Source of the DNA: Octopus vulgaris
Lineage: Eukaryota
Assembly: GCA_951406725.2 (NCBI GenBank)
Contig: OX597821.1
Span: 118,358,001 to 118,422,000 of the forward strand
DNA length: 64,000 nucleotides
Reading direction: 5' to 3'
Of this stretch, positions 2,671 through 3,900 are shown in pieces. The notes under the pieces are model-generated. The model was not told where the DNA came from and made no database searches. It saw only the letters and a program-made list of their open reading frames with translations. Both the position numbers and the translations under genes were made by a program. Each line of letters starts with the position of its first letter. The stretch's first letter is position 1.

Positions 2671-2719
2671 CTGTTACAAACAGCAGGAGAGCGAAGATGG
2701 TTAATGTTCTTTGCATCAT
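2671..2719 (-). CDS. First coding exon of a secreted-peptide gene: signal peptide MMQRTLTIFALLLFVT, phase-1 donor
   Basis: GACC-ATG context, 16 codons + 1 nt, hydrophobic core LTIFALLLFV, donor CAG|GTAAGA. TATA box and Inr lie directly upstream. Confidence 0.8.
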
Positions 2720-3900
2720 GGTCGTCTTTTGGTCAATTGCCAGATCAAAAACTGATCCGGGAAGGCTTTAGCGTCGGTATTTATACATTTGGTGAACAAT
2801 TGAAACGAATTGCAAAACGAGTGTGATGGGAATATCTCACGAAAATAATTAAGAAAACAAAAGATGCAAATTAAGACTGACAAAGATCATCCGAAATACG
2901 AATGTCTGAAAGTTATTTTTAATCATATGCTTTTGTTTGTGGAAGCATTAATTGTTTACATTAAAGCAAACTGGATTAGTGGCGTTTGAAATCACCACGT
3001 TTTGTAACACCTGATAGAAATACTATTGTATCTTGGGTAATTTTTCTACACAGAGGAGTCAATAGAAGAAATCCTCCCTTTAAAATGAAAAATATCTTAA
3101 GTTTGTAAATTTTTAAACGTTTACTATATACTAGAACAAATATTTCAGTACGATACTACATGCATTTGTGCACAATAGCGTCGTTAGAAAACTATCAAAT
3201 AATATTACAATAGGATGTACTAGCATCTGTTAAGAGTCCCCGTTCTATAAACAAATTTTGAAAATAATAAAATAAAAGACCACTTAGACGAAGGGTTTCA
3301 ACCGGGGTACATGTTAGATTTTTAGGGACCCACGGGTGCAATATAGTAAATTGGGGAGCCAGTGTACTTTAGACCAGTAGTTTCCAGAGTGGATTTCTAG
3401 TCTTCTAACATTCCAATGGTGCTCTTCCAGGTTTAGAAACCTGTTTAAAAAACGTCCTGAAAAATGTTGTTAGAAATCCTGTCTTTCCTAATTTATTTAT
3501 TACTTTCTTTTCAAAACAAAGACAAAGAATAGATAATTTAAAGTCCCCCAAACATTTATCTATGAAGCTGAGCAGAAAATTCCCCAGGGAATTCCCGAGA
3601 AAAGTGAAAGAAATAATAGTGAGCATAAAGAAAGTCAACAACAATGATGCTGTAAACAGCAGTAACAACAAAATTTAAAAGAATATATATACGCATACAC
3701 TCACACACTGAACGTTTACTATCTACTGGAATATTCAATCTGATACGGCGTGCATTCGTGCACAATAGCGTCGTTAGAAAACAACCGATTAATGTTCCAA
3801 CAGGATGTTCTAACTCACTTCTAGCATCTGTTACAAGGCCCTGTCTTATAAACAAAGATTGAAAATAACACGATGAACGTTACTTAAAATCTATCACAGT
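2717..3900. repeat. Duplicated upstream region, copy 1 (paralogous to 43232-44400)
   Basis: Long near-identical stretches, e.g. 3240-3495 versus 43770-44025. Confidence 0.95.
2750..2785 (-). promoter_or_regulatory. Core promoter: TATA box plus initiator
   Basis: TATAAAT at 2785-2779 and ATCAGTT (TCAGT Inr) at 2756-2750. Putative TSS 2753 is 32 nt from the first T of the TATA box. Both motifs are conserved in the copy at 43266-43301. Confidence 0.75.

What the first reader, a model, noticed from the sequence alone, without database searches (positions are those of the whole stretch)
2671..2785. Signal-peptide exon with textbook promoter that fits the Trp-rich exon: a probable tandem gene family
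Seen: TATA, then Inr 32 nt later, then ATG and MMQRTLTIFALLLFVT ending in G|GTAAGA (phase 1). Joining it in silico to the 58046 exon gives MMQRTLTIFALLLFVTAVQS/CYWNYC..., a complete 20-aa signal peptide obeying the -3/-1 rule. This exon lies downstream of the 58-kb exon on the same strand, so the two cannot be the same gene in this assembly. Inference: they belong to different head-to-tail paralogues, with at least three copies touching the window (exon 1 at 2.7 kb, promoter at 43.2 kb, exon 2 at 58 kb).
Basis: partly seen in the sequence, partly recalled or inferred. Interest (0 to 1): 0.72.

Follow-up and report, generated by a model that had tools for sequence, protein, structure and literature searches.

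The report
Octopus short galaxin-like peptide gene cluster
This is the first exon of one of at least three neighbouring octopus genes for small secreted cysteine-rich peptides; they share a nearly fixed export signal but differ strongly in the mature peptide, and they belong to a family already known from squid, where it helps control bacteria.

Summary
It is exon 1 of an Octopus two-exon gene for a short galaxin-like secreted peptide. Its 16 residues match 16/16 the start of an O. sinensis 'galaxin-like' protein and of one unnamed protein. The 58-kb exon matches an O. vulgaris 72-aa protein exactly, but that protein's exon 1 differs from this one at 3 of 16 residues. New support: bases 1-62 and 63939-64000, one in each gene's intron, are 79% identical. 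This predicts the missing exons near -5.9 kb and +66.6 kb. Corrections: the array is not plain head-to-tail, because an MRPS9 gene on the other strand and a 100-N gap separate the copies, and the 43-kb copy is cut at its ATG. Function is untested. Microbe control at epithelia, as for squid galaxins, is the best guess (about 0.45). A new member of a known kind.

The parts
2780..2785 (-). TATA box of copy A
   Evidence: conserved in copy B
2750..2755 (-). Initiator-like element of copy A; predicted start site 2753 (inferred, no transcript seen)
2671..2753 (-). Exon 1 of copy A: about 34 nt 5'UTR, then coding 2719-2671 (first 16 residues of a 20-residue signal peptide, phase-1 donor)
   Evidence: 16/16 identical to P0006 and P0005; 12-13/16 to P0002, P0003, P0019
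1..2670 (-). Intron of copy A, running off the left edge; no exon 2 inside it
   Evidence: tblastn and family HMM find no mature-peptide exon here
1..62 (-). Intron segment of copy A homologous to the intron of copy C
   Evidence: 49/62 ungapped, E 1.3e-8 against the window; next best site on either strand 33/62
2717..4004 (-). Upstream block of copy A shared with copy B: a mosaic of about 80% and 97-99.5% identical segments
43232..44471 (-). Copy B: upstream block, TATA (43301), Inr, 5'UTR and ATG (43232-43234), cut by the assembly gap
43132..43231 (.). 100-N assembly gap that hides the rest of copy B
57877..58046 (-). Coding part of exon 2 of copy C: last 4 signal residues, then a 52-residue mature peptide (7 Cys, 10 Trp, 6 His, no acidic residue) and stop
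   Evidence: identical to P0002 residues 17-72; composition
57543..57561 (-). Two AATAAA polyadenylation-like signals of copy C
   Evidence: use not shown
58047..64000 (-). Intron of copy C, running off the right edge; holds no exon 1
63939..64000 (-). Intron segment of copy C homologous to positions 1-62

Best explanation
The 2.7-kb exon is exon 1 of one paralogue (copy A) in a local cluster of Octopus two-exon genes for short galaxin-like secreted peptides. SHOWN: the promoter-like elements, exon and donor; three co-oriented partial copies (A, B, C); relatives named from three Octopus species with a nearly fixed signal peptide and a variable mature part built on one Cys, two to four Cys-Cys pairs and a terminal Cys. 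INFERRED: a TATA/Inr promoter drives a short transcript. Exon 1 splices in phase 1 across an intron of about 8.6 kb to a single exon that holds the cleavage site and the whole mature peptide. The peptide is secreted and folds as a disulfide-tied stack of short beta-hairpins. Copies arose by local duplication; the proximal promoter was later homogenised between A and B (conversion-like tract) while mature exons diverged, gaining or losing whole Cys-Cys units. Copy C is the shortest known form, with a Trp/His-rich cationic tail and one unpaired Cys. MOST LIKELY FUNCTION (about 0.45, by analogy only): epithelial peptides that inhibit or select bacteria, as squid galaxins do. The confidence figure is for the gene identity and architecture.
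For: Signal 16/16 to O. sinensis galaxin-like P0006. P0006 and P0003 pass the Pfam Galaxin_repeat cut-off (37.4 and 50.1 bits against 28). Among four paralogues the signal is 15-17/20 identical and the mature part 31-50% (6 of 6 pairs). Cys spacing of 9-19 residues is shared. A/C introns match 49/62. The A/B block has 99 mismatches in 1135 aligned bases, with a longest identical run of 234 that 0 of 10000 permutations reach. AlphaFold gives a signal helix plus short strands (P0002 pLDDT 70.3; P0006 77.9). The top Atlas structure neighbours are galaxin-repeat clusters (TM 0.44; 0.57). Copy C's mature peptide has pI 8.8 and charge +4.2 at pH 7. Squid EsGal peptides inhibit bacteria (PMC12773714 section 8).
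Against: No transcript or expression data seen. P0002 is a 'hypothetical predicted protein' and may come from the same genome, so it is not independent proof of splicing. Copy A's own exon 2 is outside the window, so its product is unknown. Copy C scores below the Galaxin_repeat cut-off (16.3 against 28 bits). Models rest on 4 sequences, pTM is 0.40-0.49, and the Trp/His tail is under pLDDT 50. Disulfide pairing was not shown by any tool. Squid peptides were active only at 50-300 uM and were partial peptides. P0003's mature part is neutral (pI 7.1). No 'galaxin' hit in three octopus proteome or transcriptome supplements (one cut when stored, one only 393 characters).
Confidence: 0.8

Rival explanations
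1. Same genes, structural function: the peptides are cross-linked matrix components (cuticle, beak, sucker lining, egg coat), with His/Trp and the free Cys serving cross-linking or metal binding.
For: Coral galaxins are skeletal matrix proteins and di-Cys proteins occur in mollusc matrices (PMC2726143 passages; PMC5604590 passages). Copy C has an odd Cys and 6 His. His-rich squid beak proteins are recalled, not checked.
Against: Coral galaxins are about 300 aa and acidic; these are 52-76 aa and neutral to basic. A fixed signal with a variable mature exon is more typical of defence or venom families (own knowledge). The nearest studied cephalopod relatives are in symbiotic epithelia.
Confidence: 0.3
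2. Assembly artefact: copies A and B are two haplotypes of one locus, or contigs are mis-ordered so that this exon 1 is really the partner of the 58-kb exon.
For: A 100-N gap cuts copy B at its ATG. MRPS9 stops at the gap, with no later exon recognised to the right (0 of 133 plus-strand fragments of 35 aa or more hit Ribosomal_S9; motif checks). MRPS9 frames break near the gap. The 11 bases at the gap's left edge recur only in copy A's 5'UTR. About 410 bp of A/B are 99.5% identical.
Against: Two A/B segments are only about 80% identical with indels, and the 10 kb upstream share only one dispersed 554-bp match. A and C introns are 79%, not about 100%, identical. P0002 pairs the 58-kb exon with another exon 1. 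B lies downstream of exon 2 with no gap between them, so B cannot be C's promoter.
Confidence: 0.12
3. One or a few exon-1/promoter units splice to alternative mature exons (cassette choice), rather than each gene being self-contained.
For: P0005 and P0006 have the same 16-residue exon 1 but different mature parts; the four acceptor-side residues are the same in P0002, P0003, P0005 and P0006, so exons are frame-compatible.
Against: The window shows separate promoters and homologous introns, as whole-gene duplication predicts. P0005 is an unnamed model fused to a MANEC-type protein, probably a prediction error, and its species could not be looked up.
Confidence: 0.08
4. The peptides are salivary or venom components, or signalling ligands.
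For: Small, disulfide-rich and secreted, with fixed signal and variable mature region; weak IGFL profile score (E 0.004, below cut-off).
Against: No match to solved structures. No family hit in the O. vulgaris posterior salivary gland supplement (file cut when stored). The IGFL profile also hits bacterial repeat proteins, so it is non-specific.
Confidence: 0.1

Closest known systems
Database 'galaxin-like' proteins of Octopus (P0006 O. sinensis; P0003 and P0019 O. bimaculoides; P0002 O. vulgaris)
   Same: Same signal peptide (16/16 with P0006) and the same Cys, (Cys-Cys)n, Cys frame; copy C's exon 2 is identical to P0002.
   Different: These are automatic annotations. Copy A's own mature peptide is unseen. 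Copy C has only two Cys-Cys pairs, an extra N-terminal Cys and a Trp/His tail.
Euprymna scolopes galaxins EsGal1-10 (PMC12773714)
   Same: Cephalopod multigene family with di-Cys repeats; cationic (+5 to +21.5 in squid, +4.2 for copy C); predicted beta-rich fold.
   Different: Squid genes are tied to light organ and accessory nidamental gland and have up to 7 repeats. Sequence relationship to this cluster was not tested because no EsGal sequence was available. The paper counts only two earlier-described O. bimaculoides galaxins; whether these are P0003/P0019 could not be seen (SI PDF too large).
Coral galaxins sensu stricto (Galaxea, Acropora; PMC2726143)
   Same: Signal peptide followed directly by di-Cys units of similar spacing.
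   Different: About 300 aa, pI about 4.5, dibasic processing site, skeletal matrix; here 52-76 aa, neutral to basic, in an animal with no such skeleton.
Granulin-type beta-hairpin stacks
   Same: Weak structural echo: best VIA-align row for the P0006 model is zebrafish granulin, Z 2.3, rmsd 5.0, 48 aligned; Atlas feature hit 0.76.
   Different: Both scores are at chance level; a lead only, not homology.

Membership tests
Galaxin-like proteins (broad sense, Pfam PF24748) | N-terminal signal peptide | tested here: met
   Arg then hydrophobic core (KD 3.06); helix 3-19/20 in both models; small residues at -3/-1 in the natural proteins. No dedicated signal-peptide predictor was run.
Galaxin-like proteins (broad sense, Pfam PF24748) | Regularly spaced di-Cys motifs filling the mature protein | tested here: met
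   Copy C/P0002 2 pairs, P0019 3, P0003 and P0006 4; spacing 9-19 residues. Copy C has the minimum, about one coral-type repeat.
Galaxin-like proteins (broad sense, Pfam PF24748) | Pfam gathering score of 28 bits, for proteins sharing this exon 1 | tested here: met
   P0006 37.4, P0003 50.1. P0005 (fused model) had no hit; P0019 was not scanned.
Galaxin-like proteins (broad sense, Pfam PF24748) | Pfam gathering score of 28 bits, for the 58-kb exon (copy C) | tested here: not met
   16.3 bits, E 0.0099. It links to the family through P0003 (E 1.7e-8), so it is filed as a divergent short relative, not a profile member.
Galaxin-like proteins (broad sense, Pfam PF24748) | Copy A's own mature peptide has di-Cys repeats | not testable with these tools
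   Its exon 2 lies outside the window; no eukaryotic genome collection was available.
Coral galaxin sensu stricto | About 300 aa of tandem 30-aa repeats, acidic pI about 4.5 | tested here: not met
   Mature 52-76 aa, pI 7.1-8.8 against PMC2726143.
Squid EsGal antimicrobial galaxins | Net positive charge | tested here: inconclusive
   Copy C +4.2, P0006 +3.0, P0003 +0.1 at pH 7; squid range +5 to +21.5.
Squid EsGal antimicrobial galaxins | Epithelial expression and antibacterial activity | not testable with these tools
   No expression data found (unreadable).
Squid EsGal antimicrobial galaxins | Orthology to an EsGal clade | not tested
   No EsGal sequence was returned.
IGFL (PF14653) | Pfam gathering score of 25 bits | tested here: not met
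   17.6 bits; the profile cross-reacts with unrelated Cys repeats.
Granulin fold | Structural match | tested here: inconclusive
   Z 2.3 only.

The most novel reading that the evidence does not exclude
Octopuses carry an undescribed, fast-diversifying family of miniature galaxin-derived host-defence peptides organised like toxin or defensin clusters. A conserved promoter and signal exon, kept uniform by gene conversion, feeds hypervariable single-exon mature peptides that gain or lose disulfide modules. Copy C has reduced the scaffold to one repeat and added a Trp/His-rich, pH-switchable membrane- or metal-binding tail with a free Cys. This would mean galaxin-based control of microbes is general in coleoids and not limited to squid symbiotic organs.
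Probability: 0.3. Interest if true: 0.55.

Novelty: new member of a known kind. Interest (0 to 1): 0.32.

Why it matters
The family is already in databases as 'galaxin-like', so the gene is no surprise. What is added is its anatomy: a clustered two-exon family with a fixed signal and variable mature exon, a conversion-like promoter tract, and an unusually short Trp/His-rich member. If antimicrobial, these 52-76 residue peptides are complete natural galaxins small enough to make and test whole; squid work used only partial peptides. That would bear on what galaxins do outside corals. I found no paper describing this octopus cluster in 7 searches, which cover open-access PMC and bioRxiv only. 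The locus also appears poorly assembled and mis-annotated (gap, fused model P0005).

Tried and rejected
Searched the window for a second exon 2 or another exon 1 by tblastn, blastn and family HMMs: none (next best HMM E 0.6 and 0.43 among 3158 fragments). Single-sequence homolog searches returned only P0002; the relatives came from the HMMER library (17 hits, 13 of them longer repeat proteins matching by Cys repeats only) and a profile search (4 of 23 candidates). Only proteins of 30-168 aa were candidates in those three searches, so longer or fused relatives were not sought there. PDB sequence search with P0006: 0 hits. Fold searches gave nothing significant; this does not show a new fold. 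IGFL and granulin were considered and not accepted. A control on window-edge overlaps was swamped by microsatellites and is uninformative (last part). The upstream MRPS9-like exon had no PDB hit. Supplement searches for octopus galaxin identifiers or expression found nothing relevant (the one hit in 82 was an unrelated enzyme); the PNAS SI PDF and the PMC11431876 supplement could not be read and may bear on which octopus galaxins are already described. Cluster look-ups could not be made, so accessions and the species of P0005 are unknown. No complex prediction was run.

Full report
Observation. The feature is on the minus strand and is as described. TATAAA begins at 2785, TCAGTT at 2755, the first ATG at 2719, and the frame runs 16 codons plus one base to G|GTAAG at 2671. 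TATA plus Inr alone is not rare: 7 sites in the window against a simulated mean of 2.06. The whole pattern occurs once, and at least once in 3 of 200 simulations; that pattern was set after seeing the site. The 58-kb exon runs 58046-57877, with two AATAAA signals 315 and 328 nt after the stop. The third element, at 43.2 kb, is a 1.2-kb copy of the upstream region ending exactly at its ATG against a 100-N gap.

What it is. The 58-kb peptide found one database protein, P0002, a 72-aa 'hypothetical predicted protein' of Octopus vulgaris, identical over the whole exon. Its first 16 residues differ from the 2.7-kb exon at positions 2, 7 and 11, and no such exon lies in 58047-64000. A full HMMER search gave 17 hits, of which P0003, P0005 and P0006 besides the query match from residue 1. 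A profile search named P0006 as O. sinensis 'galaxin-like' and P0003 and P0019 as O. bimaculoides. The 2.7-kb exon is 16/16 identical to P0006 and P0005, and each continues into a different mature peptide. The window is therefore octopus DNA, and the exon is the signal exon of a short galaxin-like gene whose partner is not the 58-kb exon. These are predicted proteins, possibly from the same genome; no cDNA was seen.

Evidence for separate paralogues inside the window. Positions 1-62 (intron of copy A) and 63939-64000 (intron of copy C) match at 49 of 62 bases, ungapped and in the same orientation. The next best site on either strand scores 33 (mean 17). The offset, 63938, predicts copy C's exon 1 at about 66609-66723, copy A's exon 2 at about -5.9 kb, and an intron of about 8.6 kb, if the introns are collinear. 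An unrecognised dispersed repeat is not excluded. Copies A and B differ at 99 of 1135 aligned upstream bases, arranged as 80.6%, 99.5%, 80.2% and 97.3% segments. The longest identical run, 234, was reached in 0 of 10000 permutations. That looks like old paralogy with recent conversion (inference). The 10 kb upstream of the block share only one dispersed match, which argues against a haplotype duplicate.

A plus-strand exon at 42950-43052 matches mitochondrial ribosomal protein uS9m (E 8e-8). A probable upstream exon lies at 41282-41414, identified by a recalled motif only and not confirmed by PDB. No later MRPS9 exon was recognised right of the gap (0 of 133 plus-strand fragments hit Ribosomal_S9; shorter fragments were not scanned). 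The order is thus A, MRPS9 (opposite strand), gap, B, C. The gap either hides much more than 100 bases, or B and C sit in an MRPS9 intron, or the join is wrong. Copy B's completeness is unknown.

How it probably works. Across P0002, P0003, P0006 and P0019 the signal is 15-17 of 20 identical and the mature part 31-50%. Each mature peptide has a single Cys, two to four Cys-Cys pairs and a final Cys; copy C adds one N-terminal Cys, for seven in all. I infer a disulfide ladder in which modules are gained or lost whole, and a free thiol in copy C. PMC2726143 (passages) raises the alternative that di-Cys motifs close on themselves. AlphaFold models from a four-sequence alignment show a signal helix and short strands (pLDDT 70.3 and 77.9), with copy C's Trp/His tail unresolved. 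No solved structure matched. Copy C's mature peptide has 10 Trp, 6 His, 4 basic and no acidic residues, with charge +4.2 at pH 7 and +8.5 at pH 5.5. In squid, ten galaxins are expressed in symbiotic organs, three were localised to epithelia, and partial peptides inhibit bacteria at 50-300 uM (PMC12773714: passages and sections 8 and 13). By analogy, microbe control is the best guess (about 0.45), against structural matrix (0.3) and salivary or signalling roles (0.1). None was tested.

Comparison with what is known. Galaxins are defined by a signal peptide and di-Cys repeats, and non-coral members resemble each other mainly in those motifs (PMC5604590 passages). P0006 and P0003 pass the Pfam cut-off; copy C does not. 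None is a coral galaxin in the strict sense. Short mollusc galaxin-repeat proteins already form an Atlas cluster (83 aa, 90 members), so shortness alone is not new. Octopus also has big defensin genes (PMC7203481, one passage), so this would not be its only defence peptide family. PMC10329180 and PMC10755191 (passages) added nothing on octopus galaxins. For PMC10138644, PMC7693380 and PMC12607849 I saw only the search listing and a supplement search; for PMC11431876 only the listing. Heath-Heckman 2014 was seen only as cited.

Verdict. A real gene feature and a correct inference of a paralogous cluster, in a family already annotated as galaxin-like. New member of a known kind; interest 0.32. 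The cluster's anatomy and the Trp/His-rich minimal copy appear undescribed in the literature searched (7 searches) and are easy to test.

Noticed in passing
window 41282-41414 and 42950-43052, + strand: MRPS9 (uS9m) exons beside the gap; the second hits PDB uS9m at E 8e-8. The frames appear to break at runs of A: either homopolymer sequencing errors at a contig end or a pseudogene.
   Followed up: partly
window 43121-43131 and 2733-2743: The last 11 bases before the gap occur elsewhere only in copy A's 5'UTR (9 of them also in copy B's); rough chance 2.5e-5, post hoc. Unexplained; may mark a misjoin or a duplication breakpoint.
   Followed up: partly
window 58049-58044, - strand: The exon-2 acceptor is a tandem NAGNAG; the second AG would drop one residue from the signal peptide (seen).
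   Followed up: no
protein P0005: A 350-aa model joining this family's N-terminus to a MANEC-type membrane protein. Probably a prediction fusion, hinting at a MANSC-type neighbour gene; its MANEC part has no match in the window.
   Followed up: partly
window 3116-3267, 3711-3868, 43635-43797, 44200-44346: The upstream block holds an internal direct repeat of about 150 bp (74-77% identical), present twice in both A and B; possibly duplicated regulatory sequence.
   Followed up: no
window 56184-57365: Mariner/Mos1-type transposase remnants just past copy C's 3' end (Pfam Transposase_1 and HTH_48).
   Followed up: no
window 49076-54492: Inverted repeats of 1.3 kb (90%) flanking a 617-aa minus-strand ORF at 51404-53257 that looks like a Penelope-type reverse transcriptase with GIY-YIG end (label from own knowledge).
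   Followed up: no
window 26619-31393: Two inverted, decayed LINE-like reverse-transcriptase copies, with 412-bp tandem and inverted duplications at 25472-26696 (label from own knowledge).
   Followed up: no
window 7015-8471: A 622-bp inverted repeat at 94% identity, like a foldback or MITE element.
   Followed up: no
window 31600-31900: CT microsatellite, CG-rich patch and three TAACCC units that resemble a 5' gene region, possibly the start of MRPS9; not tested.
   Followed up: no
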